A stretch of 64,000 nucleotides of DNA from an uncultured Gammaproteobacteria bacterium (GCA_964427735.1 CAYRUS010000001.1:453790-517789), one strand, 5' to 3'. Shown: positions 4,258-53,880, counted from the stretch's first letter. Notes: generated by a model from the letters alone, not told the origin. Made by a program: numbers and translations.

Positions 4258-4650
4258 TTAAACATTATTATTTGATTTTAGATAATTCTCTAAAATCAAT
4301 GCTGCTGCAAAAGCGTCTTCTAATTTTTTTCTTCTTTTTTGACCTATCCCTGCTTCAATTGATAGCTCTTGAGCTTCCCTTGTTGTTAAAGTTTCATCAA
4401 AAAGTTTTACATCAATTTCTAATTTTTCTTTTAATGAATTTGCGAAATTTTTTGACTTTTCTGCCATTACTCCCTCAGATACTCCAACAATGACTTTTTC
4501 AACATCTTCTTCTTGAATTAACTTTTCCAATTTTTTGAATAATTCAGATGTGTCCTTATATCTAAGAACACCAAATGGTTCAGCAATAATACCAGAGGAT
4601 ATTGCTAAACCTACTTTTTTTAATCCAAAATCAATTGATAAGACTTGCAT
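4258..4650 (-). CDS. ruvX: Holliday-junction resolvase-like RuvX/YqgF
   Basis: MQVLSIDFGLKKVGLAISS N-terminus and a YqgF-like acidic core. The real start is probably the internal Met (4650) rather than the ORF-track start at 4686. Confidence 0.85.
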   Translation of the reverse strand: MQVLSIDFGLKKVGLAISSGIIAEPFGVLRYKDTSELFKKLEKLIQEEDVEKVIVGVSEGVMAEKSKNFANSLKEKLEIDVKLFDETLTTREAQELSIEAGIGQKRRKKLEDAFAAALILENYLKSNNNV

Positions 4651-5323
4651 TTGCTTGAGTATAGGGGACAATCTTTGCACGCACAACTAAACGCCTTGGT
4701 TTACGAGGATCTCCCGGAGGTGTGCAGGTAACCAAAGAAAGATAAGAACCATCAGTATCTTGTTCTAAAATCTCAATATCTGTTGGCAACACCTCGTATT
4801 TCGTTTCTACTTTGTATTTATAATCAACACCATCATAGTGAACAAAAATATCATCACCATTTTCTAACTTTGGAAGGGTAGAAAAAATGGTTAGATAATC
4901 TTTGGGATTAAAAAAGATAGGCAATACAGAATGCCCAAAAATAACCCCATTACCAATTTTCCCCGGAAGTGCTGTTCCAGGATATTGGATAAGGCTTTCG
5001 CTCAAATCATCTTTCCCAATAGCAACCGTAGCTTTGTTAATTTTTAATTTTGGAATAGTAATAGTAAAGTACTCTACCTTACTATTACTACTATCCTCAT
5101 TCTCTTTTTTACCAAACCAATTGCTTGCTTTAGTTAGATCAGTATTGTTTTGATTGTTTTGTATCTGAGTATTTATTTCAACTAAAGGATTTAATAATAC
5201 CGGATAACTACTCCTAGAAGTAAGTTCATAGCTTAACAAGTTAAATAAAACAACAGTTATCATTATTACTCCGGCAAAACCAGTAAAAAACGGAAATAGT
5301 CTAAAAAACGGCTTTTTACTCAT
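4631..5323 (-). CDS. Sortase-family transpeptidase
   Basis: N-terminal TM segment, GHSVLP His motif and the LVTCTPPG (TLxTC) catalytic-Cys motif. Probable start is the internal Met MSKKPFF. Confidence 0.8.
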   Translation of the reverse strand: MSKKPFFRLFPFFTGFAGVIMITVVLFNLLSYELTSRSSYPVLLNPLVEINTQIQNNQNNTDLTKASNWFGKKENEDSSNSKVEYFTITIPKLKINKATVAIGKDDLSESLIQYPGTALPGKIGNGVIFGHSVLPIFFNPKDYLTIFSTLPKLENGDDIFVHYDGVDYKYKVETKYEVLPTDIEILEQDTDGSYLSLVTCTPPGDPRKPRRLVVRAKIVPYTQANASLIN

Positions 5324-5330
5324 AGCAATA

Positions 5331-7532
5331 CTACCTCTCGGCTGCAACTTCAACAGAAATATTTTTCTTTTGGTAAGGAAGATTGCCTAACCTTCCTGGA
5401 AGTCTGGGTTCAATAATAATCTCAGCTCGAACAAATCCTGGTATCGAGTTCAAATACTCTCTTGCAATATGCGGATACTTACCTGATACTCGATCAGTAA
5501 TCTCATCTGGATTTAGTTCAGGAAGTAGATTGGCAATAATACTTGTCTCCATTTCATAAACTCCATCTTCCTCACCTACATACTTGAATTTAATTTCTAC
5601 TTGCTCATCTTTCAACACATAACCACTAGGCACCTGATTATCAAGGACCTCTCGTGCCAACTGAACTAGCAGATCTTTTTTTACAGATACTCCACTCACT
5701 TCTAATTCTAAATCAAGTTTTAATGAAGATGCCTCATCACCCACTTTGTTACTAAAACCGGTTTTTGTAACTTGTTGGGAAATTGAATCTTTCAAAAAGT
5801 CATTTCCGTCTTCTACTTTTTCTTCCAGTTCTTTAACTGCTTTTTGTGATAGTTCCTTCTCTAATTCCTCTTCTAAAGATTCTATATCACTTTCTGAGAC
5901 TGCGGCAACTTCACGACTTTCTCCTCCTGAAAAATCTTTTTTTGCAACAGCATCTACTTCTGCGGTTGGAAAGTTTCCTACAGAAAACTCTGTACCATTT
6001 GCTAAGTTATAGTCAGAACCAATATCAGTTGCTACTACTTCTACCTCTTGGGCACCTGGTTTTGTAGGTGATAGGGCAGCAGATACAGAGGCTGGTTCTA
6101 CTGTCTCGAATGTCAAGTTATTATCTGAAGTAAGTTTTGTCCCTACTGGTAAACGAATGCTTGAGCTTGTTCCATTACGAACCTCAACAGTTCCTTTGGC
6201 CTTTTCTCCGATTGTTCGTTTGCCTGTAGTCGACTTGGTACGATCCCCAGAAACAGTAGCGCTCATAACTCTACCAGGAATAACATTTTTTTCTATATCT
6301 AAATTACTCGCTTCTGGATCTATGTATACAGTTAATCTATCCTCTAAATTTTGAGGGGAAATAAAAATAGTCAAAGAAGCCTTTGGAATAAAGTACCAGT
6401 AAGCAACTACTGATCCAATTAGTAAAAGAAGTGCAATTATTACAATTGCTAATATTCTCCTCCCTGGGCCAGCAGGAGATTTTGGTTTTTTTACCTTTAC
6501 ACCAGAAAGTTTCGATTTTATAGCAGAAAAAAAAGGAGGAATTGTCAGTTTTCTCTTTTCATTTGTATCTTCTTTTGTAAATTCCTGATCCTCTAACTCA
6601 CCTTCAAGTTCTTCGACAGAGGCAATATTATCGGAATAGTATTTATTTTCATCAGGATTTTGGTCTTCCAAGGATTCATCTGTTATATCTTTACCCACCA
6701 CAAATCCCACATCTCCAACATCCCCTTTAGGGGAGTTTGGATTTCCAGCTACTTCTGTACCAGTATCTATTTTAGAAGTGTTTGCCATTTCAATACCTCC
6801 TGCTAAAGTTACTGCAAATATTTTTTGCTCTGGTTTAAACGTTTCTACTTTTGGCGTGTGCAAAAAAGAAATTTTTTCAGGAGTACTCCAATCAAATTTA
6901 ACCAACTCTTGTCGTGCATCTTCGAGTTCACTATCTTTTGCGTTATAAACTATAAACCTTGATGGGAAAACCTCACCAGAATAAAGTCTTGTCAATCCTT
7001 CTACAACGTCATCAACAAGAGAAACACTTCTTGATACATTTTCTATTCCCTTGTTTTCGCCATTTTTAAATAATGAAACCTCAAGATTGCCTTCTCTTAA
7101 GCCCAAAATTATCCCTGTAAAAGGTACACCATCCTCAGATTTTATGAAATTTGCAATAGCCTCCGGTAAAACTACATAACCTTGTGGATCCAAGGACAAC
7201 TCTTTACATACCTTCTCTAAATCTTTTAAATATTCTCCTTTTATATTTCCTTCAAGTATCCATTGAGAGGAAAGTCCGAAAACCGCTGCAGAAGGATCAT
7301 CTATATCCTCATCTAGATTCTGTACTGCAGAGGACAAGGCTGTATCAACAACACTTATTAGGTCTTCGTTTTCGTCTCGGCTTACAGGCTTGCCCACTGT
7401 TAATACTTTGGATTCTCCTTGATTTATACTCCATATCCCTGCTTGTACCCACGAAGGTTCTATGACAATCGACCAGTAATAGGAGCTTGTCTTTGACTTT
7501 GTCTTCGGCAGTAAAGATGAAAAGTCAACCAT
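5331..7532 (-). CDS. Large bitopic membrane protein. The N-terminal ~350 aa are cytoplasmic and look like a degenerate PilM/FtsA actin fold. A single TM helix follows, then a ~350 aa extracytoplasmic region
   Basis: The N-terminus FSSLLPKTKSK..SIVIEPSWVQAGIWSI aligns by pattern to PilM LSQLFRRKKAVGLDIGSSSVKAVEL, but the DIGSS phosphate loop is replaced. A second pattern GIILGLREGNLEVSLF resembles the actin adenosine motif. Acidic linker; TM helix ILAIVIIALLLLIGSVVAYWYF. Confidence 0.55.
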   Translation of the reverse strand: MVDFSSLLPKTKSKTSSYYWSIVIEPSWVQAGIWSINQGESKVLTVGKPVSRDENEDLISVVDTALSSAVQNLDEDIDDPSAAVFGLSSQWILEGNIKGEYLKDLEKVCKELSLDPQGYVVLPEAIANFIKSEDGVPFTGIILGLREGNLEVSLFKNGENKGIENVSRSVSLVDDVVEGLTRLYSGEVFPSRFIVYNAKDSELEDARQELVKFDWSTPEKISFLHTPKVETFKPEQKIFAVTLAGGIEMANTSKIDTGTEVAGNPNSPKGDVGDVGFVVGKDITDESLEDQNPDENKYYSDNIASVEELEGELEDQEFTKEDTNEKRKLTIPPFFSAIKSKLSGVKVKKPKSPAGPGRRILAIVIIALLLLIGSVVAYWYFIPKASLTIFISPQNLEDRLTVYIDPEASNLDIEKNVIPGRVMSATVSGDRTKSTTGKRTIGEKAKGTVEVRNGTSSSIRLPVGTKLTSDNNLTFETVEPASVSAALSPTKPGAQEVEVVATDIGSDYNLANGTEFSVGNFPTAEVDAVAKKDFSGGESREVAAVSESDIESLEEELEKELSQKAVKELEEKVEDGNDFLKDSISQQVTKTGFSNKVGDEASSLKLDLELEVSGVSVKKDLLVQLAREVLDNQVPSGYVLKDEQVEIKFKYVGEEDGVYEMETSIIANLLPELNPDEITDRVSGKYPHIAREYLNSIPGFVRAEIIIEPRLPGRLGNLPYQKKNISVEVAAER

Positions 7533-40120: not shown

Positions 40121-40124
40121 CATC

Positions 40125-40817: not shown

Positions 40818-41203
40818 AAAAAGACGCACCAAATATTGTAACTATCGCCATCATGTCTTTAATTACAGTGTTTTTATGGGTTGGATTTAGTATTTATAGA
40901 ACAATAACAAAGGAGGCTGCTCCTATTGTTGAAGAAACAGTGTTAAGAGACATTGATCCAAATCTTAACATTCAAGTACTATCCCAGATGGAGCAGAGGC
41001 TTCACATTGAAGAACCAGAGTTGTCAAACTTAGTTCAAAGTATTGAGTCACAATTACCTATAGACACCCAAATAGATGGAGAGACCCAAGATAGTACTCC
41101 ATCAGCAGAATTAAACCAAACTCCAGAATCAACAGTTGATGATGATAACGAAGATGAAATAATAGATGAAGAACAAGACCTACTTGAGGAAGAAAATGAA
41201 TAA
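40814..41203 (+). CDS. Small single-pass membrane protein with a strongly acidic C-terminal tail
   Basis: TM helix IVTIAIMSLITVFLWVGF, ending DDDNEDEIIDEEQDLLEEENE. Confidence 0.45.
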   Translation: MKKDAPNIVTIAIMSLITVFLWVGFSIYRTITKEAAPIVEETVLRDIDPNLNIQVLSQMEQRLHIEEPELSNLVQSIESQLPIDTQIDGETQDSTPSAELNQTPESTVDDDNEDEIIDEEQDLLEEENE

Positions 41204-42611
41204 CACCCAAGAAAACCCACCATCACCAAAAGAGGAGAAGGTTAATATACTTAACTCTGATATACCTACTCCCAAGCCACTAATGTTAAAAAGGCAAAAG
41301 ATGCCTACGGTATTTGGTGTTGCTGTATTGTTAATAGGTCTCGTCACAGGAATTGTGCTAGTACAAAGAGAACAGAACCTTGGCACAGAGGCAACAGATG
41401 AAGGTCAACCAGCTGATGTCAGAGTGACAAATATAACTGACTCATCATTTACAGTAAACTGGACTACCCAAACAGAAACACCAGAGTATGTTCTTTGGGG
41501 TAAAGACAACGATTTAACCAGCACAGGAAGCGACAACATAACTTCCAACGGAACTGTACACTCTGCAAACATCACAGGGTTATCCGCACAAACCACATAT
41601 AGTTTTAAAATTGGATCAGGAGATAAAGTTTTTGACAACAATGGACAACCCTGGGAAGTTACAACAGGACCTGTACTGCAAAACTCTTCAGTCGTATCAC
41701 CTATTTCTGGAACAATTACCTTGGCAAATGGACAACCGGCAAGTAATGCAATTGTTTACATAAATATAGGTGGTGCTTCACCAGTGTCCACAATTACTAC
41801 AAGTAATGGTAATTGGATATTGCCATTAACCACAATTCGATCTAGAGATTTAAATTCATACTTGTCCATTGATGATCAAAATACTGTTATGGAAATATTC
41901 GTTCAAGCAGGTCGACATGGTATCGCTACAGCAACAAGTTACCCATGGACATCAAGACCTTTACCAACCTTATCATTAGGAAGCAATGAAGATTTTAGAA
42001 ATTCCAGTAATACTGACTCCTCAACTCCATCATCTGAAATTAATTTACCTGAAGAAACAAACACAAATTCAAGATTTAATCTAGAAAGTACAAACTCAAA
42101 TGAAGATAACACTGTAACATTAGAAAGCATTGATGAAGGTGAAGTCTTTTCCACAACACAACCTCAATTTTTTGGAGAAGGATCCCCAGGTACCACACTC
42201 ACTATTACAGTCGAATCCACACCTATGACTGACAACATATCCGTGGGAACAAACGGAACTTGGAATTGGTCATTACCAAACCAACTAGAAGAAGGCAGTC
42301 ACAAGGTAATAATTTCTTGGAGAGATGGAAGCGGCATATTAAGAACAATTACCAGATCATTCACAGTTGAGGTTTCTGGAAGCACAGCTTTATTAGCAGC
42401 GACACCAACCCCAACAATAAAACCCACTTCAACACCTAAGCCTACCCCCACACTGACCTCCACACCAAAACCCACTCCTGATGTCCTTGCATCTTCATCA
42501 CCATTACCCGATGCAGGAATTTCAGTATATACTTTAAATCTTGCCTTAACTGGTTTAGTATTGTTATTGATGAGTAGCTTTGCTATTGTAGTTATAAGGA
42601 ATAAAAAATAA
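41166..42611 (+). CDS. Surface protein: N-terminal signal-anchor, a fibronectin type III domain, Ig-like region, Pro/Thr linker, and a C-terminal sortase sorting signal (LPDAG, hydrophobic stretch, then RNKK)
   Basis: FN3 pattern DVRVTNITDSSFTVNWTT...YSFKI. C-terminus LPDAGISVYTLNLALTGLVLLLMSSFAIVVIRNKK. Confidence 0.7.
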   Translation: MKNKTYLRKKMNNTQENPPSPKEEKVNILNSDIPTPKPLMLKRQKMPTVFGVAVLLIGLVTGIVLVQREQNLGTEATDEGQPADVRVTNITDSSFTVNWTTQTETPEYVLWGKDNDLTSTGSDNITSNGTVHSANITGLSAQTTYSFKIGSGDKVFDNNGQPWEVTTGPVLQNSSVVSPISGTITLANGQPASNAIVYINIGGASPVSTITTSNGNWILPLTTIRSRDLNSYLSIDDQNTVMEIFVQAGRHGIATATSYPWTSRPLPTLSLGSNEDFRNSSNTDSSTPSSEINLPEETNTNSRFNLESTNSNEDNTVTLESIDEGEVFSTTQPQFFGEGSPGTTLTITVESTPMTDNISVGTNGTWNWSLPNQLEEGSHKVIISWRDGSGILRTITRSFTVEVSGSTALLAATPTPTIKPTSTPKPTPTLTSTPKPTPDVLASSSPLPDAGISVYTLNLALTGLVLLLMSSFAIVVIRNKK

Positions 42612-42613
42612 CC

Positions 42614-43957
42614 ATGCCCAATCAAGATGACAATCAAAATCCACCTGTTTCTGATGAAATGAAACCGCCTGTTCCTCCAATCGTTGACGAGGAAAAAAAC
42701 ACTAATACTCCTAATACATCAAAACCTGAAAGTAGTACAAAAGATAATGCTCCACCACCACCTCCAGTATTTTCGGTAGGAAACCAGCCATTAGATAGCA
42801 ATACATCTGATATTCCCAACCCCCCACCTGCTGCCTCTGATGTGGTAGGAACTCCCAGCTCTGGTTCCCCAACAAAGAACTTTTTTACAAAAAAAGTTGT
42901 AGCAACATTCTTGGGAATACTCTTATTGGTAGGGGGAGTAATATCCGGGATAATCTTAGTACAAAGACAACAGGACATTAGAAAACAAGCCGGATCAATT
43001 GGAGGCTTAGCCTGTACTTCTCCTAAAGGCATCATTGTCACAAGCAAATCTCAACCTGGCTTACCAGGTGACCTTGGTTATAAGCCAATACCTCAAACAT
43101 ATAATGTTGGTGAAACTGTAAATTTTCAGGTACAAGTCAAAAATGAATCAAATAATCGTGTTTCAGATCATTATCATTTTTTTGCTCAAAAAGTGGTTGA
43201 AGCACCTCGAGGGCAAACTCCAAATCCTAACCTAACAGAACCTGAAATGTATAGTATCCACAATGATCCAAGCAGGGGAACATCTCAAGTCACCAAATTC
43301 AACAGTGGCAATCAACCATTTACTCTTGAACCAGGGGCAACTCAATACCTTAAGTATTCGTGGAAACCAACTGAATGCGGTTTTTATCAGATCGATATGG
43401 GTATTGAGGACTTTTTCTATGTAAACCGCGATAATTCTAGCCAAACCTGTCAAATTACTCAAACACCAGACCGAGATGCAGTAGCTGCCGCCGGATTTAT
43501 AAAAGTAGTTGGTTGTGATGTTAATCCAACAGCTACACCAACAATAAGACCGACCTCTACACCACAACCAACGCCTACACCAACAACAAGACCAGGCGTG
43601 ACGCCAACACCTACAGCCACACCAGCAAAAACCACACCACCATCTGCACCACAAGGCGGAGCATGTTTTAATATTAGAACTTATGACCTAGAAGATAATG
43701 AACTAAGTATCCAAGATCTTTCAAACTTACAGCCAGGAGATCGTATAAAATTTGTTGTAGCAGGAGTAGCAACGCCTAATGGAACTTATGATCGTGCAAG
43801 ATTTAGAGTAACCACAGGTGATATTATTCCAAGCTGGAATGAAGTAACAACTTCAGATGAAGATTCGACATTTTATTACATATATACAATTCCTGATGAT
43901 GCTGAAACTTTCAAAGTAGAAGCACAAATTCACCACAGTGTTAGTGGTTGGTTATAA
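42614..43957 (+). CDS. Secreted or surface protein with a Pro-rich N-terminus, signal-anchor and Pro/Thr linker
   Basis: Its anchor ...GGVISGIILVQRQQ resembles the anchor of the preceding protein. No C-terminal sorting signal. Confidence 0.55.
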   Translation: MPNQDDNQNPPVSDEMKPPVPPIVDEEKNTNTPNTSKPESSTKDNAPPPPPVFSVGNQPLDSNTSDIPNPPPAASDVVGTPSSGSPTKNFFTKKVVATFLGILLLVGGVISGIILVQRQQDIRKQAGSIGGLACTSPKGIIVTSKSQPGLPGDLGYKPIPQTYNVGETVNFQVQVKNESNNRVSDHYHFFAQKVVEAPRGQTPNPNLTEPEMYSIHNDPSRGTSQVTKFNSGNQPFTLEPGATQYLKYSWKPTECGFYQIDMGIEDFFYVNRDNSSQTCQITQTPDRDAVAAAGFIKVVGCDVNPTATPTIRPTSTPQPTPTPTTRPGVTPTPTATPAKTTPPSAPQGGACFNIRTYDLEDNELSIQDLSNLQPGDRIKFVVAGVATPNGTYDRARFRVTTGDIIPSWNEVTTSDEDSTFYYIYTIPDDAETFKVEAQIHHSVSGWL

Positions 43958-44661
43958 AAACTATGAAAATGAATATTAAAACAATAATAATTGGACTTTC
44001 GACCGTAGTCCTTGGTGGAGTAGCAATCTTTACTGCTGTTAGACTATATCAGCTAAGAAGTGAACCCATCGCTCCCAACGCCCCGCAAAGTCAGCCACTG
44101 GCACAGCAAGGAGGTCTTTGTGGAGGAATAACTCAAATATCATGTGCAAGTGGTTTTACCTGTATCTATGAAAACGGTAGCACTATTGCTCCTCATCCTG
44201 ATGCTACCGGAACTTGTCAACCTCAAAACCAAGGGGCAAATGAAGGAGAAATGTGTGGAGGCATTGCAGGAATTGACTGTGCAAAAGGTCTCGTTTGTGA
44301 TTATGGCTCAGGTAACCTATCAGCACCCAACCCTGATGCTACTGGGGTATGTGTATCTGAAACAAACAAATCTGCCTGTGAGGCAATTACTTTTACTATC
44401 ACCAAAGCTACTCCTACACCCACAGCAACTGCTAATGTAACTAGCACGCCAACGCCTACACCTACAGATACCCCTGCTGGTGAGGATCCAACACCTACAG
44501 CAGCATCAACATTGAAACCAACATCTACACCAAGTCAGCCATTGGCTGAAACTCCAACTCCAGCTCCTAGCCTGCCAACAGCTGGTGTAGGATCACCTAC
44601 AATTATCGGACTAGGCGCTGGAATGTTAATCTTGCTCTTCTCACTTATTCTTGCATTGTAA
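43948..44661 (+). CDS. Surface protein with two Cys-rich ~40-aa repeats, a Pro/Thr linker and a C-terminal LPTAG sorting signal
   Basis: Repeats CGGITQISCASGFTCIYENGSTIAPHPDATGTC and CGGIAGIDCAKGLVCDYGSGNLSAPNPDATGVC. C-terminus SLPTAGVGSPTIIGLGAGMLILLFSLILAL. Confidence 0.65.
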   Translation: MVIKTMKMNIKTIIIGLSTVVLGGVAIFTAVRLYQLRSEPIAPNAPQSQPLAQQGGLCGGITQISCASGFTCIYENGSTIAPHPDATGTCQPQNQGANEGEMCGGIAGIDCAKGLVCDYGSGNLSAPNPDATGVCVSETNKSACEAITFTITKATPTPTATANVTSTPTPTPTDTPAGEDPTPTAASTLKPTSTPSQPLAETPTPAPSLPTAGVGSPTIIGLGAGMLILLFSLILAL

Positions 44662-45618: not shown

Positions 45619-45674
45619 TTATATGATACAAAAATACACACTATCTTGGTTGTAGAGTATGTTACAAAATAACC

Positions 45675-47224: not shown

Positions 47225-49681
47225 TTACCAGGTTTTAAACCAATGATAGCTTTCATCAAGCCAAACTGGTACTGTTATGCCTGTGTAGCGAGGTAAAAAG
47301 TATATAAAAGCAACCATAGCTAAACTAAAAAACCACAGTCTCACTTTTTTATATTTTGCAAGAATAAATCCTAACAAAATTGCTAAAAAGGGAATGGACG
47401 GCAAGTAATGGTACAAAAACATAATTCTAGGCGAGGCTGCCCAAGGAACAAAAAATATTGCATACGAAAAAACTATTAGAGCAATCTTTTTAGCCCACTC
47501 ATTCTTTAAAGAAAAGTTTTTAATAACCAAATATACACATACCAATACCGCTATCAATCCTCCCCAAAAAACTATTGGATTCCCCATTATGTAAATATTG
47601 GAAACAACATTGTCAACAACTCCACCGGCATAAACCCAAATTGGTCTTAATAAAATTGGCCAACTCCACCATGGTGAAGTAAAAGGATGCTCTGCCTCCA
47701 AACGTGTGTGATACCACCACATTTGCTTTTGAACTCCAATAAATATGTCAAAACCGTGACCACTAGTGAACATTGGGATATAACTTGCCAAATAAACAAG
47801 AGGAGGTAACAAAATAAACCATATATAATTTAGTCTAAACTTTTTCCCTAGCAACAAAAATGCAATAGGAAAAATCGGCAATGCCCACAAAGCACTCCAT
47901 TTGGAAGCAAGAGCTAAACCATAAGCTATTGCTGAAAAAGCATATTTATCTTTAATAAATAGATAAAAAGACAATAAAACAAAAAATAATAAATAAGCAT
48001 CATTCATTCCAATTCTGCTTAGCCCTAGAGGCAAACCATCAAGAGCAAATACCGCAGAGGAGAAAATACCAACGTCTCTATTAAAAAGTTCCTTAGCGAT
48101 TAAATAAACCAATAAAACACTTCCTGTACCTAAAATTGCAGCGGGGAAACGCCAAGCAAAGGCCTGTTCTCCAAATATAGCCATTGAGAACCACATACCT
48201 TCTTTTGCAAGTGGAGGGTGAGTCCATTCATAGGCAAAACCTTCGGGATGGGGATTCCACCATTCCCAAGCCATTGGATTCCCTTGAAGCATTTGTCTTG
48301 CTGTAAAAGCATGATAAACCTCATCAAAGTACTCGTTCTTTGGTTCACTTAAACTTACTAATCTGACAAACAAAGATCCCAATAATACAAGCACTAAGAG
48401 AATTTTAATTTGCTTGTCTGTAAACACTTCATTAACAACTAGCTTTTCTGATTTTTTTGTCCCTGGATCTAAATTAAAAGAAAGAGAAAAAAGCTTACTG
48501 GTAGTGATTTTCACTTTTGAAGCATAAACCAAAATAGCCAATCCTAATACATTAATAATAGAAAATGCTTTCGATACAAAGACAGGAAAGACTTCTTTGA
48601 AATTGTTAGTTATCCAAACATAAGCGTAATATAGGTTTGCTAAATAACCTACAGATAAAGCAAGATAAACAAAAGCTGCTACTTCATAAAATGCAGATAC
48701 AATAGCCAGTGGGGCAAGAGCTGGAAGCAAATGTCTTTCATGAAGACGAGTAAAAAATACAAAGTTTGCCAAAAACAATACGGAAAGCAAAAAGTAGCTG
48801 GATTTTTCTTCTTTTTTTAATTTTATGGCCGTCAATATAAAAATAAATACTGTCATTAAATAACCAAAAAACTTATAAACAGGATTGTCGGGTCGCCAAA
48901 AGCCAAATATGCCCCAGAAATTAAAAGCATTTACACTGGTATATGGGTACTGATTTAAAGTTGTGTTAATTCTTTGAACTATAAACTCCATCAGTGATCC
49001 ATTATTCCAAAAAGGAACAAAGGCAAGAGCAAAAATAACTCCAGATAATAAAATATAAGTGGCAACATTAACTAATCTTGTCTTTCTTGTATACATTAAA
49101 TAAAGTACGACAAGTGCTACTAAAGCAGCTTGTGGCTTGACTAGTGTGCCAATAGCAAGGAAAAAAGCTGATAAGTACAAATTACTACCAAAAGAAAATA
49201 TAGTAAGTAAAGAAAAAAGTGCAGTTAAAGAGTCCACTTGTCCCCACAATGCCGAGTTTGCAAAAACTGCCGGGTTAAATAACCACATTCCACTAGCTAC
49301 TAATGCCTTTTTAGAAGAGGTATACTTTTTAACTACTAGGTAAACAAGATATCCGATCAAGACATCAGAAAAAATTGCGGGCAATTTATACAGTATGACT
49401 TCTGGTATTAAAATGGCTTGATTTATTTTCCCCAATAACCACAAAACATAAAGGTATCCTGGCAAATAATCAGACCAATTACTATAAAAATTCCTAAACC
49501 CATTTTCTGCAAGGTTATTACTCCAACTCAGAAAAGTGTTAAAATCAAGCTCAAGAGTACCAAAAGGAGACATAAAAATCCTTAAGGCCAGCGCTGCCAA
49601 GAGCAAAACCAAAATATTTTTATCAAATTTTATATCTCTAAAAAACCTCATAAATTTTAACTTCTTCATTAGTATACACAT
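47225..49681 (-). CDS. Large polytopic membrane glycosyltransferase: a GT-C-like N-terminal half fused to a PMT/ArnT-like (PMT_2) C-terminal half
   Basis: The second half carries YFDEVYHAFTARQM, matching the DE loop motif of PMT/ArnT-type GT-C enzymes. About 20 TM helices; 818 aa. Confidence 0.65.
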   Translation of the reverse strand: MCILMKKLKFMRFFRDIKFDKNILVLLLAALALRIFMSPFGTLELDFNTFLSWSNNLAENGFRNFYSNWSDYLPGYLYVLWLLGKINQAILIPEVILYKLPAIFSDVLIGYLVYLVVKKYTSSKKALVASGMWLFNPAVFANSALWGQVDSLTALFSLLTIFSFGSNLYLSAFFLAIGTLVKPQAALVALVVLYLMYTRKTRLVNVATYILLSGVIFALAFVPFWNNGSLMEFIVQRINTTLNQYPYTSVNAFNFWGIFGFWRPDNPVYKFFGYLMTVFIFILTAIKLKKEEKSSYFLLSVLFLANFVFFTRLHERHLLPALAPLAIVSAFYEVAAFVYLALSVGYLANLYYAYVWITNNFKEVFPVFVSKAFSIINVLGLAILVYASKVKITTSKLFSLSFNLDPGTKKSEKLVVNEVFTDKQIKILLVLVLLGSLFVRLVSLSEPKNEYFDEVYHAFTARQMLQGNPMAWEWWNPHPEGFAYEWTHPPLAKEGMWFSMAIFGEQAFAWRFPAAILGTGSVLLVYLIAKELFNRDVGIFSSAVFALDGLPLGLSRIGMNDAYLLFFVLLSFYLFIKDKYAFSAIAYGLALASKWSALWALPIFPIAFLLLGKKFRLNYIWFILLPPLVYLASYIPMFTSGHGFDIFIGVQKQMWWYHTRLEAEHPFTSPWWSWPILLRPIWVYAGGVVDNVVSNIYIMGNPIVFWGGLIAVLVCVYLVIKNFSLKNEWAKKIALIVFSYAIFFVPWAASPRIMFLYHYLPSIPFLAILLGFILAKYKKVRLWFFSLAMVAFIYFLPRYTGITVPVWLDESYHWFKTW

Positions 49682-51572
49682 TTCTCATATATGGTGAGTT
49701 ATCAAAATTAGCCTCTGCTTCCGGATATTCTCTCTTTTCAGCATTTCCATAATAAATATAATCAAATGAATATTTTGATTTTAATAGATCAAGATAAGCT
49801 TTATTATCTGGATTCGAATAGAACTTTTCGATTTCTTCAGATCTGACAAACACGTTATCTTCACCAGAGTTATATCCGTGGCTATGTGGCCAATTTATAT
49901 AAGAAAGAATTCTTAAACGTCCTGCAACTTGTGTGATTGGAGAATGAACAGTCGGTAATCCAACATAAACTGATTTTTGCGGTGTTTGCTGCCTCATCCA
50001 AATTCCTGCTTCATATTCTGGCAAAGTGTACGCCTGATTTTTATTTATAACACTCCAAAGCACAACCAAGAATGAACTCGAAATAGTAGTTAAAATCACC
50101 ACTATAGAAACAGCTTGTCCAAGAATCCTTTTTTGCTTAACTAAATCTGATAATACCCACCCTGTAATAACTGCAACCGGAATTATCATAAAGTAAAAAA
50201 ACTTAAACATATCTTTTTCATAGATAGTAAAAGTCACACTGTAAGGGATTATAAACAAGATTAAACCGAAGAAAAATAAATACCAAAAGTGTTTATTTTT
50301 AAAATCTTTTGCTAAAACTACCTTGACAGGTGCAATTAAAAATATCACAAAAGGTAAGCCAAAATTATTTAATATAAAACTAAGATGCCAATGGAAGCTT
50401 CTATCACTATTCCAATTTCCAAAACGAAAAGTTTCTTCCACCAAGTTAATCAATGAATTCCCATTAGTTTTAGTACCTAAAAACATTGGAGAAATAATTA
50501 AAATAGGAAGTATAAAAACAATAAGTAGTTCTATATTCTTTCTCAAACCTTTTATCGAAAAAAACAACAAATTAACCAAGCCAAACAATATAAAGCCAAC
50601 AATAAATGCAAAAAACTGGAATTTACTTACTAAGGCTGTTACAACTCCTGCAAGTAAAACTCTCTTATAATCCTTTTTTTCATACCCCGTGGACAAAACA
50701 TACGCAATAATTGCAACTGAAGGTAAACCAACCATCATGGGCCGGTTTTGTAAAAAATAATCAACCATTGGAGCCATCTGATACAAACCATTTGACTCTA
50801 TGCTGTAACCTCTATAAAGCAAGTCAATTATTGCAATAAAAATCGGTCTCTGACCAAGCTGAGCATTAACATCGGTTATAAATTTTATATAAATCCAATT
50901 GCTAAAAAATGCACCGATAACCGAAGAAATGATTGCTGCAACTTTATCTTTAAAAAGCAAATACGAAAAAGAATATATGCTAAAAGCAAAAGTAAAAATA
51001 AAAATAGGATTTGTATAAACTAAAACACGAGGAAAAAATTCAGACTTTAAAACATTAATTATTGCAGAGTGAAAATCTGAAAAATAATAATAAGTCATGA
51101 GCTTACCTGCATAGTATGGAGCTTGAGGAGGGAAATTACCTTCGGCAATACTTTCTATAATCCCAATGTGCATTGCTGTATCTTGCCAGTTAACAGCAGA
51201 TAAAACCACATAGTTATTATAAACAGTAAAAATTGCTGGATACAAAGCAAAAAACACTATGCCTAAACTTAAAATGGACACCACCCAAATAAATGTATGC
51301 TCTTTAAAAAAAGTAAGTTTAGGCTTTTTTATGTCAATTAAAAAAACCAGTGGTAAAAATATGGACATAGCAAATAAAACATAAAACCTGTTTAGTTTAA
51401 AAAGGGAAGCTACAAAATAGACTACATATGTTGAAAATAATACACTTAAAATAATGTATAAAGGAATTTTCTCAAGTGGCTCAAGTTTTTTGAAAAAAGC
51501 CTCTATAATAAGAACACCAGGTATAAAAAAAATAAACAAAAAACCTACAACAGCTAATAAATGATTAACCAT
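49638..51572 (-). CDS. Polytopic membrane protein, probably a GT-C-type glycosyltransferase
   Basis: 644 aa with many TM helices and the loop NWQDTAMHIGIIESIAEGNFPPQAPYYAG. This is a family-level guess only. Confidence 0.5.
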   Translation of the reverse strand: MVNHLLAVVGFLFIFFIPGVLIIEAFFKKLEPLEKIPLYIILSVLFSTYVVYFVASLFKLNRFYVLFAMSIFLPLVFLIDIKKPKLTFFKEHTFIWVVSILSLGIVFFALYPAIFTVYNNYVVLSAVNWQDTAMHIGIIESIAEGNFPPQAPYYAGKLMTYYYFSDFHSAIINVLKSEFFPRVLVYTNPIFIFTFAFSIYSFSYLLFKDKVAAIISSVIGAFFSNWIYIKFITDVNAQLGQRPIFIAIIDLLYRGYSIESNGLYQMAPMVDYFLQNRPMMVGLPSVAIIAYVLSTGYEKKDYKRVLLAGVVTALVSKFQFFAFIVGFILFGLVNLLFFSIKGLRKNIELLIVFILPILIISPMFLGTKTNGNSLINLVEETFRFGNWNSDRSFHWHLSFILNNFGLPFVIFLIAPVKVVLAKDFKNKHFWYLFFFGLILFIIPYSVTFTIYEKDMFKFFYFMIIPVAVITGWVLSDLVKQKRILGQAVSIVVILTTISSSFLVVLWSVINKNQAYTLPEYEAGIWMRQQTPQKSVYVGLPTVHSPITQVAGRLRILSYINWPHSHGYNSGEDNVFVRSEEIEKFYSNPDNKAYLDLLKSKYSFDYIYYGNAEKREYPEAEANFDNSPYMRNVYTNEEVKIYEVF

Positions 51573-52730
51573 ATTAAAAAGTTTATATCAAAAGAAAAAT
51601 TACTGTTAATTTTATTATTTTCAATTTCTCTTTTTATATACTACTTAACTTCAGCAGGAAATACTCCCTATGACTACTTTACCAGATTAGCATCTGCTTT
51701 TTTACAAGGAATGTATTGGATTGAAAACCCACCCCAATGGCTAAACGAGGTTATTCCTTATCATGGAAAATATTATGTTGTTTACCCTCCTATGCCTGCC
51801 ATTGTTCTTATTCCATTTGTATATTTATTTGGAGAAAGTTTTCCTCAACAACTATTAGCACACTTAATGGGTGCCGGGATTGTTGTATTTTCTTATAATG
51901 CGGTACTTTCTTTGACTAAAGTAAAAAAGATCGCACTCTGGTCAGCATTACTTATTGGCTTGGGTAGTATTGTCTGGTATTTATCAGCTACGGGATCTGT
52001 TTGGTATCTTGGTCAAGTTTCCGCTGCATTCTTTATGACTGCAGCTTTGTATTTTGTTTTAGAAAAAAAATTTTTTTTGAGCGGCTTGTTTCTCGGAGCA
52101 TCCTATCTTTCAAGAGTACACACTATCGCTGCTATTCCTGTTTTTTTGTATTTGTCTTATAAACACAAAAAAAAATCAATTCTTTCATTTGTAACAGGTG
52201 TACTGCCGTTTTTGATTTTCAATGCTTTATATAATTATGTGAGATTTGGAGTTCCTTGGGATATTGGCTATAAGCTCATTCCCGGAGTATTAGAAGAACC
52301 ATGGTATCAAAAAGGTCTGGTGCATCCTAGCTATATATTGTCTCATTTAAAAATAATGTTTTTAGCCTTACCTAAATTACTAAATGAATTTCCATATATC
52401 CAACCATCTTGGGCAGGATTAGCAATCTGGATAACTACTCCAGCTTTTGTATTTTGTTTGTTTGCTCCATTAAAACAAAATATTACAAAATTTTTATGGT
52501 TGTCTTTATTATTGGTTTCAATACCTGTTTTAATGCACGGTGGAACAGGCTTTACGCAGTTTGGATATAGGTATGCTGTTGATTTTTATCCACTTCTTTT
52601 ACTTTTAACTGCTTTAGGTGTCAAAAAAACAGGCCTAAAAAAATACCACTGGGTTTTATTAATTATTGGAGTAATCGTTAATCTGTGGGGAGTACTATGG
52701 ATTAATAAATTTGGTTGGATAAGTTATTAA
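51561..52730 (+). CDS. PMT_2/ArnT-like GT-C membrane glycosyltransferase
   Basis: 389 aa polytopic. N-terminal loop GNTPYDYFTRLASAFLQGMYW...YHGKYYVVYPPMPAI, typical of the PMT_2 family. Confidence 0.55.
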   Translation: MINHIKKFISKEKLLLILLFSISLFIYYLTSAGNTPYDYFTRLASAFLQGMYWIENPPQWLNEVIPYHGKYYVVYPPMPAIVLIPFVYLFGESFPQQLLAHLMGAGIVVFSYNAVLSLTKVKKIALWSALLIGLGSIVWYLSATGSVWYLGQVSAAFFMTAALYFVLEKKFFLSGLFLGASYLSRVHTIAAIPVFLYLSYKHKKKSILSFVTGVLPFLIFNALYNYVRFGVPWDIGYKLIPGVLEEPWYQKGLVHPSYILSHLKIMFLALPKLLNEFPYIQPSWAGLAIWITTPAFVFCLFAPLKQNITKFLWLSLLLVSIPVLMHGGTGFTQFGYRYAVDFYPLLLLLTALGVKKTGLKKYHWVLLIIGVIVNLWGVLWINKFGWISY

Positions 52731-52788
52731 AAAACTTAATTTATTCAAAAATATATATTTAATCTTTCTTTTGCAAATCTGCTATCAA

Positions 52789-53874
52789 TTAATTATTAAG
52801 TAAATTAGACACCCAATCATGAATCTCGCTCCAGTCACCAGATCTAGGAACAAATACATACAAATTATCATAATCTTCACTTGGCTCTGGATTTTCTAAA
52901 AGCGTCTCATCTATCACTTCTGAATGAATATTTTCTTTTGCTACATATGCAAATCTAGCCACTGCTGCAGCCTCTTCTTGAGAGAAATCTGTTTCTACAT
53001 TGTTCTCTGCAATACCAATAAGCTCTTTTATCTTTACTGGAGAAGCAACAACCTCTGCACTAATCAATTTATCCCTCAGTGCCATGATTACTTTTTGTTG
53101 CCTGCGACTTCTAGCTGTGTCTGTACCTTCTTCACCTTCAGCATGCCTGGATCTTACAAATTTAAGAGATGTTTCTCCATCCATATGCGTCAATCCTGGT
53201 TCAAAAGTTATTGTTTCATATCGACATCTTAATTGAATATCTCCTTCACAATTATCATTTTCTCTGCCCGGAATAGGGTACATATGATCGGTAAAACCAT
53301 TGTCAATAACTACATCAATACCTCCAACAACATCAATTGCACCTTTAAAAGCCTCAAAATCAACTACAACACCATAATGAACCGGCAGACCTACGATTTC
53401 TTCAACTGTTGCTTTAGCAAGCAATAGACCTCCATTTTCTTGCTTTTGATTTCCCCAATAATAAATACTGTTGAGTTTTGCTCTAAGTTCAGAAATCCAA
53501 ATATCACGAGGGAGAGAAATAATAACAATATCTCCACCATCATCTGGTACAGATACAAACATTATTGTATCTGTCAGGTCAGGTGCTTCGTGTCCCGTGC
53601 CTCCTTTCCCTAAAACTAAAATATTGGTCCTGCCTTCAAATGATTTGACTTCACCACTTCTTGCAAATACAAACTCATACAAAGCGTTTGTATATTTTGT
53701 TACTCCTGCTTCCTTTAGATAATTTTTAGCCAAAAAGGCAGTAATCAATATAAATAACACTAGACCTCCTGCAACAAAAAGCCGTATAGCCTTGTTGTGA
53801 ACTAAAATCCTTCGTTTTAGTTTTGATAATTTGATATAAAGTTTTCCTTTTTTGGTATTTGTTTTGTTGTCCAT
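52789..53874 (-). CDS. LCP (LytR-CpsA-Psr) family phosphotransferase
   Basis: TNILVLGKGG...DTIMFVSV...IISLPRD core motifs of the LCP domain, after an N-terminal TM helix. Confidence 0.85.
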   Translation of the reverse strand: MDNKTNTKKGKLYIKLSKLKRRILVHNKAIRLFVAGGLVLFILITAFLAKNYLKEAGVTKYTNALYEFVFARSGEVKSFEGRTNILVLGKGGTGHEAPDLTDTIMFVSVPDDGGDIVIISLPRDIWISELRAKLNSIYYWGNQKQENGGLLLAKATVEEIVGLPVHYGVVVDFEAFKGAIDVVGGIDVVIDNGFTDHMYPIPGRENDNCEGDIQLRCRYETITFEPGLTHMDGETSLKFVRSRHAEGEEGTDTARSRRQQKVIMALRDKLISAEVVASPVKIKELIGIAENNVETDFSQEEAAAVARFAYVAKENIHSEVIDETLLENPEPSEDYDNLYVFVPRSGDWSEIHDWVSNLLNN

Positions 53875-53880
53875 GATAGA

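What the first reader, a model, noticed from the sequence alone, without database searches (positions are those of the whole stretch)
47225..53874. Three adjacent GT-C-type membrane glycosyltransferases plus an LCP enzyme
Two PMT_2/ArnT-like proteins are present, one of them an 818-aa fusion of two GT-C-like halves carrying a FDEVYHA motif. A 644-aa polytopic relative sits between them. They flank a LytR-CpsA-Psr phosphotransferase. This looks like a polyprenyl-phosphate-sugar-dependent glycosylation and attachment module for a secondary wall polymer or protein O-glycosylation. The Pro/Thr-rich surface proteins nearby would be plausible O-glycosylation targets.
Basis: partly seen in the sequence, partly recalled or inferred. 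Interest (0 to 1): 0.55.

Follow-up and report, generated by a model that had tools for sequence, protein, structure and literature searches.

The report
Double glycosyltransferase fusion beside Pro/Thr-rich proteins
A Woesebacteria-type (candidate phyla radiation) genome carries a conserved membrane enzyme that joins a protein O-mannosyltransferase-like module to a glycan-extending module; it lies next to two more lipid-sugar-dependent transferases and three Pro/Thr-rich surface proteins, so it most likely sugar-coats those proteins, a known kind of system in a new arrangement.

Summary
The four ORFs exist exactly as listed. The order is 818 aa(-), 644 aa(-), 389 aa(+), LCP(-), so the LCP gene ends the row and is not flanked.

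- **818-aa protein.** It is a true two-module GT-C fusion.
  - Residues 423-818 are a minimal GT39/PMT core. It has PMT plus PMT_4TMC and all four catalytic residues shown essential in M. tuberculosis PMT: D453 within FDEVYHA, D561, and R752/F755.
  - Residues 1-392 fold like ALG6, PimE and PIG-M.
- **644-aa protein.** A DUF2298/"YYY" GT-C with oligosaccharyltransferase-like architecture but no WWDYG motif.
- **389-aa protein.** Only weakly PMT_2-like.
- **Distribution.** The fusion occurs in at least 179 species-level Woesebacteria/Microgenomates genomes.
- **Variable slot.** Between the fusion and LCP, 0-4 genes are drawn almost only from about eight GT-C families.
- **Candidate acceptors.** The only three Pro/Thr-rich ORFs in the 64-kb window lie just upstream, and two end in LPxAG sortase signals.
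- **Independent context.** In one differently arranged relative, the fusion and the 644-type gene sit beside a giant (PT)n protein, a small GT2 and a sugar epimerase.

Best reading (confidence 0.5): polyprenyl-phosphate-sugar-dependent protein O-glycosylation with initiator and elongator fused. The LCP link is unproven. No activity was tested. Novelty: new variant of a known kind.

The parts
47225..49681 (-). 818-aa two-module GT-C fusion protein. The true start may be M5 or M11.
   Evidence: ORF. More than 120 homologues of about 800 aa at 50-55% identity and 95-100% coverage. Found in 179 species-level genomes.
48506..49681 (-). N-module, residues 1-392: GT-C of the ALG6/PimE/PIG-M structural type. 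Candidate glycan-elongating transferase.
   Evidence: AlphaFold pLDDT 88.8, pTM 0.88. Foldseek PDB hits: ALG6 3e-6, PimE 3e-4, Gpi14, ALG3, ALG9. Family profile vs PDB hits GPI mannosyltransferase 1 at E 1e-4. hhalign to the C-half 96.9%.
49454..49477 (-). [quoted passage not shown] Invariant except L73, which is at least 90% conserved.
   Evidence: Alignments A1 and A2. Coordinates.
48416..48505 (-). Lys-rich linker between the two modules, residues 393-422. Low-confidence in the model and presumed cytoplasmic.
   Evidence: pLDDT below 50 from residue 403. Hydropathy and charge profile.
47228..48415 (-). C-module, residues 423-818: minimal GT39/PMT core without a MIR domain. Candidate initiating protein O-glycosyltransferase.
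   Evidence: PMT_4TMC 80.9 bits, PMT_2 57.1 bits, PMT 42.0 bits, all above cut-off. The only PDB sequence hits in this half are fungal Pmt4, Pmt1 and Pmt4.
48308..48328 (-). FDEVYHA, residues 452-458. D453-E454 is the catalytic DE motif of PMT external loop 1.
   Evidence: Aligned to yeast Pmt1 FDEVHFG (D77-E78). Invariant in the family. The corresponding residue D74 is essential in MtPMT (PMC12331936).
47993..48016 (-). RIGMNDAY, residues 556-563. D561 is the second catalytic Asp, on external loop 2.
   Evidence: Aligned to ScPmt1 D189, which equals MtPMT D176 (PMC12331936). Invariant.
47417..47428 (-). R752-I-M-F755: the Rx2[Y/F] motif of external loop 5.
   Evidence: Aligned to ScPmt1 R649..F652, which equals MtPMT R441..Y444. 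Invariant.
49638..51572 (-). 644-aa DUF2298/'YYY' GT-C with a C-terminal extracytoplasmic domain. Overlaps the fusion gene by 44 nt, so it is probably co-translated with it.
   Evidence: AlphaFold pLDDT 91.4. Foldseek hits AglB, PglB, STT3 at 6e-9 to 1e-6, then DPY19, AftA, ArnT. PF10060 appears in most homologues. TIGR03662 E 2e-10, below cut-off. Invariant D131, D166, H168, R277. No WWDYG in 0 of 120 members.
51561..52730 (+). 389-aa polytopic membrane protein, a probable small GT-C. It is the commonest partner of the fusion, present in 47 of 65 loci.
   Evidence: hhalign 95.3% to the PMT module. NCBIfam LA_3751/2 E 4e-8, below cut-off. PMT_2 in 2 of 32 relatives. E63, R185 and D341 invariant. 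Synteny.
52789..53874 (-). LytR-CpsA-Psr (LCP) phosphotransferase with an N-terminal membrane anchor. Its link to the GT-C genes is unproven.
   Evidence: PF03816 E 8e-29. TIGR00350 90.4 bits vs a 62.3 cut-off. PDB relatives TagV, TagU, TagT, Cps2A, MsrR. Adjacent in 65 loci but absent from L064.
41166..42611 (+). 481-aa surface protein with fn3, Big_13 and a PT linker. It ends in LPDAG, a TM segment and RNKK. Candidate acceptor.
   Evidence: Pfam domains. Sequence. One of only 3 PT-rich ORFs in the window.
42614..43957 (+). 447-aa membrane-anchored protein with a PT-rich linker, residues about 305-345. Candidate acceptor.
43948..44661 (+). 237-aa protein with a long PT linker, ending in LPTAG plus a TM segment. 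In almost all relatives it is the direct neighbour of the fusion gene. Candidate acceptor.
   Evidence: Across the related loci 88% of orthologues are PT-rich and 68 of 76 have [LIVM]Px[TASG]G in the last 50 aa.
4631..5353 (-). Sortase, the enzyme that would process the LPxAG-type signals.
   Evidence: PF04203 E 3e-23.

Best explanation
The cluster encodes the extracytoplasmic part of a polyprenyl-phosphate-sugar-dependent protein O-glycosylation system.

Proposed steps, all inferred unless marked otherwise:
1. A cytoplasmic GT2, not encoded in this window, loads a hexose onto polyprenyl phosphate, and the lipid-sugar is flipped outward.
2. The C-module of the 818-aa protein is a GT39/PMT core. 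It transfers the first sugar to Thr/Ser in the Pro/Thr-rich linkers of secreted, sortase-anchored proteins. The likeliest acceptors are the three encoded just upstream.
3. The fused N-module is a PimE/PIG-M/ALG6-type GT-C. It extends that sugar, as free-standing PimE does after PMT in mycobacteria.
4. The 644-aa DUF2298 enzyme and the 389-aa enzyme add further residues. They belong to a variable set of accessory GT-Cs that differs between lineages and diversifies the glycan.
5. The LCP enzyme most likely has its usual role of ligating a polymer to peptidoglycan. It may be only a syntenic neighbour.

Shown: folds, family assignments, conserved catalytic residues, gene order and its conservation.
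Inferred: donor, acceptor, order of action and any activity.
For: (1) The C-module has the PMT plus PMT_4TMC pair. It also has all four residues that are essential in MtPMT: D453, D561, R752 and F755. They are aligned, invariant, and their function is described in PMC12331936.

(2) The N-module has a GT-C fold closest to ALG6, PimE, Gpi14/PIG-M and ALG3/9. Its acidic and HERH motifs are invariant. In actinobacteria, PMT initiates and the GT87 enzyme PimE elongates O-mannose chains (PMC12757957).

(3) The same two modules are fused in about 41 of the best 150 cluster representatives of the N-module family. These include 990-1290-aa proteins, of which the two that carry a source name are from Clostridia/Clostridiales MAGs. 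About 80 of the 150 are free-standing. This is a Rosetta-stone type of link.

(4) The only 3 PT-rich ORFs in the 64-kb window are the 3 genes upstream. Two carry LPxAG sorting signals. Outside these families only about 1% of ORFs in the related loci are PT-rich.

(5) L064 has a different genomic context. There the order is: giant (PT)n protein, fusion, 644-type, PIG-V/PMT_2-like GT-C, 243-aa GT2, then an epimerase/dehydratase on the opposite strand, then another PMT_2 GT-C. The GT2 shows full-length, sub-threshold similarity to dolichyl-P-hexose transferase, AglJ, ArnC and PgfS.

(6) In 65 non-redundant loci the fusion-to-LCP interval holds 0-4 genes. They are drawn almost only from GT-C families: 389-type 47 loci, DUF2298 18, PIG-V-like 12, PMT_2-like 6, TMEM260-like 3, PMT-like 2, YfhO 1, GT87/ALG6-like 1.

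(7) There is precedent in streptococci. The Pgf and GtrB/PgtC2 systems use a GT2 plus GT-C enzymes to O-glycosylate Ser/Thr-rich regions of LPXTG adhesins that are encoded in the same cluster (PMC12041528).
Against: - No biochemical data exist for any member.
- No GT2, flippase or nucleotide-sugar gene is in the window, and the rest of the genome could not be searched.
- Adjacency to the PT-rich genes and to LCP is confounded by near-perfect synteny of the whole 25-kb region across the lineage. Only L064 gives an independent context.
- In the one Clostridia context examined (P0499) the fusion has no PT-rich neighbour.
- The N-module's structural relatives all act on lipid-linked glycans, and PIG-U, a non-catalytic GT-C-fold subunit, is among the top hits.
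- The C-module scores far below NCBIfam's equivalog cut-off for actinobacterial Pmt (58 vs 800 bits).
- The 389-aa protein's GT-C assignment is weak.
Confidence: 0.5

Rival explanations
1. The GT-C enzymes build or decorate a non-protein envelope glycopolymer, either a lipoglycan or a polyprenyl-PP-linked wall polysaccharide, on the outer face of the membrane. The adjacent LCP enzyme then ligates it to peptidoglycan. This follows the logic of mycobacterial LM/LAM/arabinogalactan synthesis or of teichoic-acid glycosylation.
For: LCP is adjacent in 65 loci. The structural relatives of the N-module (ALG6, PimE, PIG-M, ALG3/9) and of the 644-aa protein (AftA, ArnT) act on lipid-linked glycans or lipids. 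The accessory slot contains YfhO, PIG-V-like and GT87-like genes, whose families include lipoglycan and teichoic-acid glycosyltransferases. MurJ and FemAB wall genes lie nearby.
Against: The GT39 module carries the PMT_4TMC domain and all four PMT catalytic residues, and to my knowledge every characterised GT39 enzyme modifies proteins. The fusion's immediate neighbours are PT-linker proteins in two independent contexts. LCP is missing from the L064 cluster, which does carry the GT2 and the epimerase. YfhO-type enzymes are now also known to glycosylate proteins.
Confidence: 0.25
2. The genes are neighbours only because gene order is frozen in these small genomes. Each GT-C works in a separate pathway, and neither the LCP nor the PT-rich proteins have a functional tie to them.
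For: The entire stretch from MurJ to FemAB, including pcrA and hrcA-grpE-dnaK, is collinear in nearly all 80 loci. The four genes are on three transcription units with mixed orientation. The promoter and terminator scans were uninformative.
Against: The variable slot is filled almost exclusively with GT-C genes from about eight families, which random insertion would not give. The 644-type gene stays directly beside the fusion in the rearranged L064 locus, together with two more GT-Cs, a GT2 and an epimerase. The 644 and 818 genes overlap by 44 nt on the same strand.
Confidence: 0.15
3. The N-module is not a second catalyst. It is a substrate-binding or dimer-mimicking scaffold, like PIG-U in GPI transamidase or the partner subunit in eukaryotic Pmt1-Pmt2 dimers, that supports the PMT module.
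For: PIG-U chains rank 2-4 and 6 among the structural hits. Eukaryotic PMTs work as dimers (PMC12757957). The window's N-half narrowly misses the PMT_2 cut-off and reaches no other Pfam threshold.
Against: In the N-module D71, D106, D150, K182 and the H314-E-R-H317 motif are invariant, and D46 is at least 90% conserved. These are positions typical of active GT-C enzymes. About 80 of the best 150 relatives are free-standing proteins of 330-500 aa, as expected for an autonomous enzyme.
Confidence: 0.1

Closest known systems
Actinobacterial protein O-mannosylation pathway: Ppm1 (GT2), PMT (GT39, Rv1002c) and PimE (GT87)
   Same: The C-module has the same domain pair (PMT plus PMT_4TMC). It has the same four catalytic residues and lacks a MIR domain, as bacterial PMTs do. 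The acceptors proposed here are Pro/Thr-rich unstructured segments of secreted proteins, matching MtPMT's preference. A PimE-like GT-C is present to elongate.
   Different: Initiator and elongator are fused in one polypeptide, N-module first. The organism is a candidate-phyla-radiation bacterium, not an actinobacterium. The C-module is shorter (about 395 aa) and is not an equivalog (58 vs 800 bits). Extra variable GT-C genes accompany it. The sugar is unknown, and no Ppm1-type gene is nearby in this window.
Streptococcal Pgf (PgfS/PgfE/PgfM1/PgfM2) and GtrB/PgtC2 systems
   Same: A GT2 makes an undecaprenyl-P-sugar, and GT-C enzymes transfer it outside the cell to Ser/Thr-rich disordered regions. 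The acceptors include LPXTG-anchored adhesins encoded in the same cluster. The related locus L064 has the same parts list: GT2, epimerase and several GT-Cs.
   Different: The streptococcal GT-Cs are YfhO-family enzymes, not GT39. There is no fusion. YfhO appears here only as one of the interchangeable accessory genes in a relative (L001).
Oligosaccharyltransferases AglB/PglB/STT3 (compared with the 644-aa protein)
   Same: Overall architecture of a multi-helix GT-C core plus a C-terminal extracytoplasmic domain. These are the best Foldseek matches (E 6e-9 to 1e-6), and the AglB C-terminal domain is matched separately.
   Different: No WWDYG motif in any of 120 family members. TM-scores are only 0.35-0.46. 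The sequence family is DUF2298/Chlor_Arch_YYY, which to my knowledge has no characterised member.
Actinomyces oris LcpA-GspA-SrtA pathway
   Same: An LCP enzyme, a sortase and a sortase-anchored glycoprotein occur together. In A. oris the LCP itself transfers the glycan to the protein (PMC6381275).
   Different: There is no evidence here that the LCP touches the PT-rich proteins. This comparison is a lead only.

Membership tests
GT39 / PMT (C-module, residues 423-818) | The Pfam PMT (PF02366) plus PMT_4TMC (PF16192) module pair | tested here: met
   42.0 bits (cut-off 22.7) and 80.9 bits (cut-off 32.4). The pair is named as the prototypical PMT core in PMC12331936.
GT39 / PMT (C-module) | Catalytic Asp of the DE motif in external loop 1 | tested here: met
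   D453-E454 aligned to ScPmt1 D77-E78. Invariant in 31 sequences.
GT39 / PMT (C-module) | Second Asp on external loop 2 (MtPMT D176, ScPmt1 D189) and the Rx2[Y/F] motif on loop 5 | tested here: met
   D561 aligns with ScPmt1 D189. R752..F755 aligns with R649..F652 (residue count by hand). All are invariant.
GT39 / PMT (C-module) | Orthology to actinobacterial Pmt (NCBIfam equivalog NF058602) | tested here: not met
   58.4 bits against a cut-off of 800. It is a family member, not an equivalog.
GT39 / PMT (C-module) | Transfer of mannose from polyprenyl-P-mannose to protein Ser/Thr | not testable with these tools
   Requires an enzyme assay or glycoproteomics.
ALG6/PimE/PIG-M-type GT-C (N-module, residues 1-392) | GT-C fold closest to this structural group | tested here: met
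   Foldseek: ALG6 3e-6 (TM 0.66), PimE 3e-4 (TM 0.57-0.64), Gpi14 TM 0.64, ALG3 TM 0.59. PMT and ArnT score lower. The group label (often called GT-C_B) is from my own knowledge of the literature.
GT87 (PimE family) | Pfam PF09594 hit above threshold | tested here: not met
   The window's N-half gives only PMT_2 at 25.8 bits against a 26.1 cut-off. PF09594 is precomputed for 4 of 120 homologues.
GT87 (PimE family) | Catalytic Asp in the first external loop equivalent to PimE's | tested here: inconclusive
   D46 (at least 90% conserved) and D71 (invariant) lie in the first external loop. No residue-level superposition was available.
DUF2298 / Chlor_Arch_YYY (644 aa) | PF10060 or TIGR03662 above cut-off | tested here: not met
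   PF10060 E 0.051 (13 bits vs 27.8). TIGR03662 39.9 bits vs 300. Most homologues do carry PF10060, and the YYY motif is present (Y161-Y163). It is a divergent relative.
Oligosaccharyltransferase (STT3/AglB/PglB) | WWDYG motif in the C-terminal domain | tested here: not met
   0 of 120 family members have it. They have an invariant S-Y-x-x-W-P-x-S-H-G instead.
PMT_2 / ArnT-like GT-C (389 aa) | Pfam PMT_2 or a curated GT-C family hit | tested here: inconclusive
   No Pfam hit for the window protein, and PMT_2 in 2 of 32 relatives. NCBIfam LA_3751/2 32.5 bits vs 200. hhalign 95.3% to the PMT module. No PDB hit.
LCP (LytR-CpsA-Psr) | LCP catalytic domain above curated cut-offs | tested here: met
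   PF03816 101 bits vs 24.6. TIGR00350 90.4 bits vs 62.3. PDB relatives TagT, TagU, TagV and Cps2A.
Three-component polyprenyl-P-sugar glycosylation system (GT2 + flippase + GT-C) | GT2 polyprenyl-phosphate glycosyltransferase and a GtrA-type flippase encoded with the GT-C | tested here: not met
   None in the 64-kb window. A 243-aa GT2 is present in the related locus L064. The rest of the source genome could not be searched.

The most novel reading that the evidence does not exclude
Woesebacteria, and with a longer linker some Clostridia, use a single-polypeptide 'initiate-and-extend' O-glycosyltransferase, a PimE/PIG-M-type module fused to a GT39 module. Beside it lies a fast-evolving cassette of interchangeable GT-C enzymes. 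Together they give pilus-operon-associated, sortase-anchored Pro/Thr-linker proteins a lineage-specific glycan coat. This would be a surface-diversity system for host or phage interactions in candidate-phyla-radiation bacteria, and the first functional assignment for DUF2298.
Probability: 0.3. Interest if true: 0.6.

Novelty: new variant of a known kind. Interest (0 to 1): 0.45.

Why it matters
GT39-type protein O-mannosylation in bacteria has been studied almost only in actinobacteria. If the best reading holds:

- The pathway extends to the candidate phyla radiation, whose envelopes are largely uncharacterised.
- The fusion gives a natural argument that PMT and a PimE-like elongator work together.
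- Three concrete candidate acceptor proteins are identified.
- There is a first functional context for DUF2298 and for the 389-aa family.
- The variable GT-C slot would be a marker of surface-glycan diversity in these mostly uncultured bacteria.

None of this changes basic concepts. Public databases already label the protein 'glycosyltransferase family 39'.

Tried and rejected
- tRNA and Rfam scans of the window found nothing.
- The promoter and terminator scan of 44.5-54.2 kb gave fewer promoter-like sites than shuffles. It could not define transcription units.
- I tried to recover the source contig through exact-protein look-ups. The 644-aa and LCP products are in the protein collection (a 759,860-bp NCBI contig), but no gene positions are on record. 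The rest of the genome therefore could not be searched for GT2 or flippase genes.
- Profile search of the 389-aa family against PDB found nothing.
- Sequence-only profile comparison failed to link the 644-aa family to the other GT-Cs (probabilities 2-38%). Only the structure did.
All confident structural hits are GT-C enzymes. MurJ, MFS and other transporters appear only at probability 0.16 or lower.
- An N-oligosaccharyltransferase identity for the 644-aa protein is rejected because it has no WWDYG motif.
- The one Clostridia fusion context examined (P0499) gave no PT-rich neighbour.
- Literature searches for Woesebacteria or Patescibacteria glycosyltransferases and O-mannosylation returned nothing relevant.

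Full report
**Observation.** The finding's coordinates match four ORFs exactly.

| Coordinates | Strand | Length | Identity |
|---|---|---|---|
| 47225-49681 | - | 818 aa | two-module GT-C fusion |
| 49638-51572 | - | 644 aa | DUF2298-type GT-C |
| 51561-52730 | + | 389 aa | probable small GT-C |
| 52789-53874 | - | 361 aa | LCP |

- The 644 and 818 genes are co-directional and overlap by 44 nt.
- The 389-aa gene is divergent from the 644-aa gene. The LCP gene converges on the 389-aa gene and lies next to pcrA.
- The LCP is therefore at the end of the row, not flanked by the GT-C genes.
- The window has about 35% G+C. It contains MurJ, PilN/PilO, sortase, two FemAB genes, hrcA-grpE-dnaK-dnaJ and housekeeping genes.
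- The homologues that carry a source name are from Candidatus Woesebacteria, Microgenomates or the Patescibacteria group, with a best identity of 55% for the 818-aa protein. For the other two genes the best identity outside the source genome's own entries is 61% and 47%.

**The 818-aa protein is a genuine two-module fusion.**

*C-module (residues 428-818)*
- It passes Pfam cut-offs for PMT_4TMC (80.9 bits), PMT_2 (57.1) and PMT (42.0).
- A family profile searched against PDB sequences hits only fungal PMTs in this half: Pmt4 at 3e-16, Pmt1 at 4e-13 and Pmt4 at 4e-7.
- In those alignments FDEVYHA (residues 452-458, nt 48308-48328) sits on yeast Pmt1 FDEVHFG (D77-E78).
- D561 sits on ScPmt1 D189. 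R752-I-M-F755 sits on R649-Q-M-F652.
- These are the counterparts of MtPMT D74, D176, R441 and Y444, all shown essential by mutagenesis (PMC12331936).
- All are invariant in 31 aligned family members.
- There is no MIR domain, as in bacterial PMTs.
- The NCBIfam equivalog for actinobacterial Pmt is far from met (58 vs 800 bits). This is a GT39-family core, not an orthologue.

*N-module (residues 1-392)*
- It just misses PMT_2 (25.8 vs 26.1 bits).
- Profile-profile comparison ties it to the C-half (96.9%, E 1.4e-10 over 239 columns).
- AlphaFold gives a compact model (pLDDT 88.8, pTM 0.88).
- Its best PDB matches are ALG6, PIG-U, PimE, Gpi14/PIG-M, ALG3 and ALG9 (TM 0.57-0.66). PMTs, ArnT and the oligosaccharyltransferases score lower, and transporters appear only at noise level.
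- The family profile also weakly hits GPI mannosyltransferase 1 by sequence (E 1e-4).
- Conserved residues include D46 (at least 90%), the W69-S-D71-Y-L-P-G-Y76 motif, D106, D150, K182 and H314-E-R-H317. All but D46 and L73 are invariant. This argues for an active enzyme.

**The other two membrane proteins.**
- The 644-aa protein has no Pfam hit of its own. Most of its homologues carry DUF2298 (PF10060), and NCBIfam Chlor_Arch_YYY matches below cut-off.
- Its model (pLDDT 91.4) matches AglB, PglB and STT3 (6e-9 to 1e-6), then DPY19, AftA and ArnT. Its C-terminal domain matches the AglB globular domain.
- None of 120 family members has a WWDYG motif. They share an invariant S-Y-x-x-W-P-x-S-H-G, together with D131, D166, H168 and R277.
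- It is therefore a GT-C with oligosaccharyltransferase-like architecture but not an oligosaccharyltransferase.
- The 389-aa protein is the weakest assignment: hhalign 95.3% to the PMT module, NCBIfam LA_3751/2 E 4e-8, PMT_2 in 2 of 32 relatives, and no PDB hit.
- E63, R185 and D341 of the 389-aa protein are invariant.
- The LCP is unambiguous.

**Distribution and synteny.**
- A scan of one genome per species found 179 genomes encoding the fusion. The 80 loci fetched are Woesebacteria/Microgenomates by title or by gene content, though many are mislabelled.
- Their order is almost fixed: MurJ | PilN, PilO, small protein, fn3/Big_13 protein, 447-type, 237-type | fusion | variable slot | LCP | pcrA | two FemAB.
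- In 65 non-redundant loci the slot holds 0-4 genes:

| Gene family in the slot | Loci |
|---|---|
| 389-type | 47 |
| DUF2298 | 18 |
| PIG-V-like | 12 |
| PMT_2-like | 6 |
| TMEM260-like | 3 |
| PMT-like | 2 |
| YfhO | 1 |
| GT87/ALG6-like | 1 |

- A few slot genes remain unassigned. Clearly non-GT-C genes occur in only two loci.
- The window's combination (389 plus 644) is the commonest, found in 14 loci.
- An EamA gene and a 480-aa ORF (44848-47117) are inserted only in this window.

**Candidate acceptors.**
- Only three ORFs in the 64-kb window have a stretch of at least 50% Pro+Thr over 30 residues. They are the three consecutive genes at 41166-44661.
- The 481-aa protein ends in LPDAG, a TM segment and RNKK. 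The 237-aa protein ends in LPTAG and a TM segment. A sortase gene lies at 4631-5353.
- Across the related loci, 88% of 237-type proteins are PT-rich, and 68 of 76 have an [LIVM]Px[TASG]G motif near the C-terminus.
- Outside these three families only about 1% of ORFs of at least 150 aa are PT-rich.
- Because the region is syntenic everywhere, this adjacency alone is weak evidence.

**An independent context.** L064 has a fusion 43% identical to the window's but different flanks.
- The order there is: a (PT)n- and Cys-rich protein of at least 1450 aa, then the fusion, then a 644-type gene, then a PIG-V/PMT_2-like GT-C, then a 243-aa GT2.
- An NAD-dependent sugar epimerase/dehydratase follows on the opposite strand, then another PMT_2 GT-C and a methyltransferase.
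- The GT2 has full-length, sub-threshold similarity to dolichyl-P-hexose transferase, AglJ, ArnC and PgfS.
- There is no LCP in that locus.
- This supports a polyprenyl-phosphate-sugar pathway tied to PT-linker proteins. It weakens the case that LCP belongs to the module.

**The fusion as a recurring architecture.**
- An exhaustive HMMER search with the N-module found 4064 cluster representatives at E no greater than 1e-3.
- Of the best 150, about 80 are free-standing proteins of 330-500 aa.
- About 41 carry a PMT-like module downstream. Fifteen of these are 967-1288 aa, and the two that carry a source name are from Clostridia/Clostridiales MAGs.
- The one Clostridia context examined (P0499) has no PT-rich neighbour.

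**Mechanism.**
- In actinobacteria Ppm1 makes polyprenyl-P-mannose. PMT (GT39) then mannosylates Ser/Thr in Pro-rich segments of secreted proteins, and the GT87 enzyme PimE extends the chain (PMC12757957; PMC12331936).
- In streptococci a GT2 plus YfhO-type GT-Cs glycosylate Ser/Thr-rich regions, including LPXTG adhesins encoded in the same cluster (PMC12041528).
- The window's cluster fits this logic. The C-module would initiate, the fused N-module would elongate, and the accessory GT-Cs would diversify the glycan. The upstream sortase substrates would be the acceptors.
- I give this reading 0.5.
- The main rival is extracytoplasmic assembly or decoration of a wall or lipid-linked glycan that LCP then attaches (0.25).
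- Pure synteny without a functional link gets 0.15.
- A non-catalytic N-module gets 0.1.
- No activity, donor or acceptor has been shown.

**Verdict.**
The errors are the LCP position and the overstated PMT_2 call for the 389-aa gene.
- This is a new variant of a known kind of system. It is widespread in its lineage, already labelled GT39 in databases, and of moderate interest (0.45).

Noticed in passing
window 39563-44661: A PilN/PilO-containing operon continues into three membrane-anchored Pro/Thr-linker proteins, two of which have LPxAG-type sortase signals. This may be a wall-spanning accessory of the pilus machinery in a bacterium with a Gram-positive-type envelope.
   Followed up: partly
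window 44848-47117: An EamA/DMT-family membrane protein (256 aa) and a 480-aa soluble ORF with no family hit lie between the PT-rich genes and the fusion. They occur only in this window and in none of 80 related loci. DMT-superfamily proteins include lipid-sugar flippases (from memory), so the EamA protein is a speculative flippase candidate.
   Followed up: partly
window 49638-49681; 51561-51572; 53874-53881: Gene packing is very tight. The 644 and 818 genes overlap by 44 nt. The divergent 644 and 389 start codons overlap by 12 nt. The divergent LCP and pcrA starts are 6 nt apart, so promoters must lie inside coding sequence.
   Followed up: no
window 51561-52730 and 47225-49681: The public gene call for the 389-aa gene is 50 residues shorter (339 aa, P0121), although homologues support the long form. 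The exact 818-aa product is absent from the protein collection, although its neighbours from the same 759,860-bp NCBI contig are present.
   Followed up: partly
window 62064-63203 and 63260-63925: Two tandem ORFs of the MATCAP (microtubule-associated tyrosine carboxypeptidase, formerly DUF1704) family, with E 5e-60 and 3e-49.
   Followed up: no
window 18316-19221: A very strong hit (E 6e-103) to the 'eukaryotic' dimethylarginine dimethylaminohydrolase family.
   Followed up: no
window 4631-7532: The sortase gene overlaps a 733-aa ORF that has a weak Baseplate_J-like hit (E 1e-5).
   Followed up: no
loci L005-L084: Many contigs with Woesebacteria-type gene content and synteny are titled 'uncultured Gammaproteobacteria'. 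Others are titled 'Methanosarcinales archaeon', 'Alphaproteobacteria' or 'Pseudomonadales'. These titles look like taxonomic mislabels in the public records.
   Followed up: no
L085 10001-13456 (P0499) and P0446: N-module::GT39 fusions of 1042-1151 aa, with a linker longer by 150-250 residues, occur in Clostridia/Clostridiales MAGs. The architecture is therefore not confined to the candidate phyla radiation. In the one context examined (P0499) no PT-rich neighbour is present.
   Followed up: partly
L081 7502-9950: Two free-standing N-module-like genes (416 and 401 aa, with GT87 and ALG6/8-like hits) sit directly upstream of the fusion. This looks like tandem duplication of the elongator-type module.
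   Followed up: no
L059 6535-8817: This is one of only two loci (with L053) whose variable slot holds clearly non-GT-C genes: a short-chain dehydrogenase, an alpha/beta hydrolase and a small 155-aa ORF.
   Followed up: no
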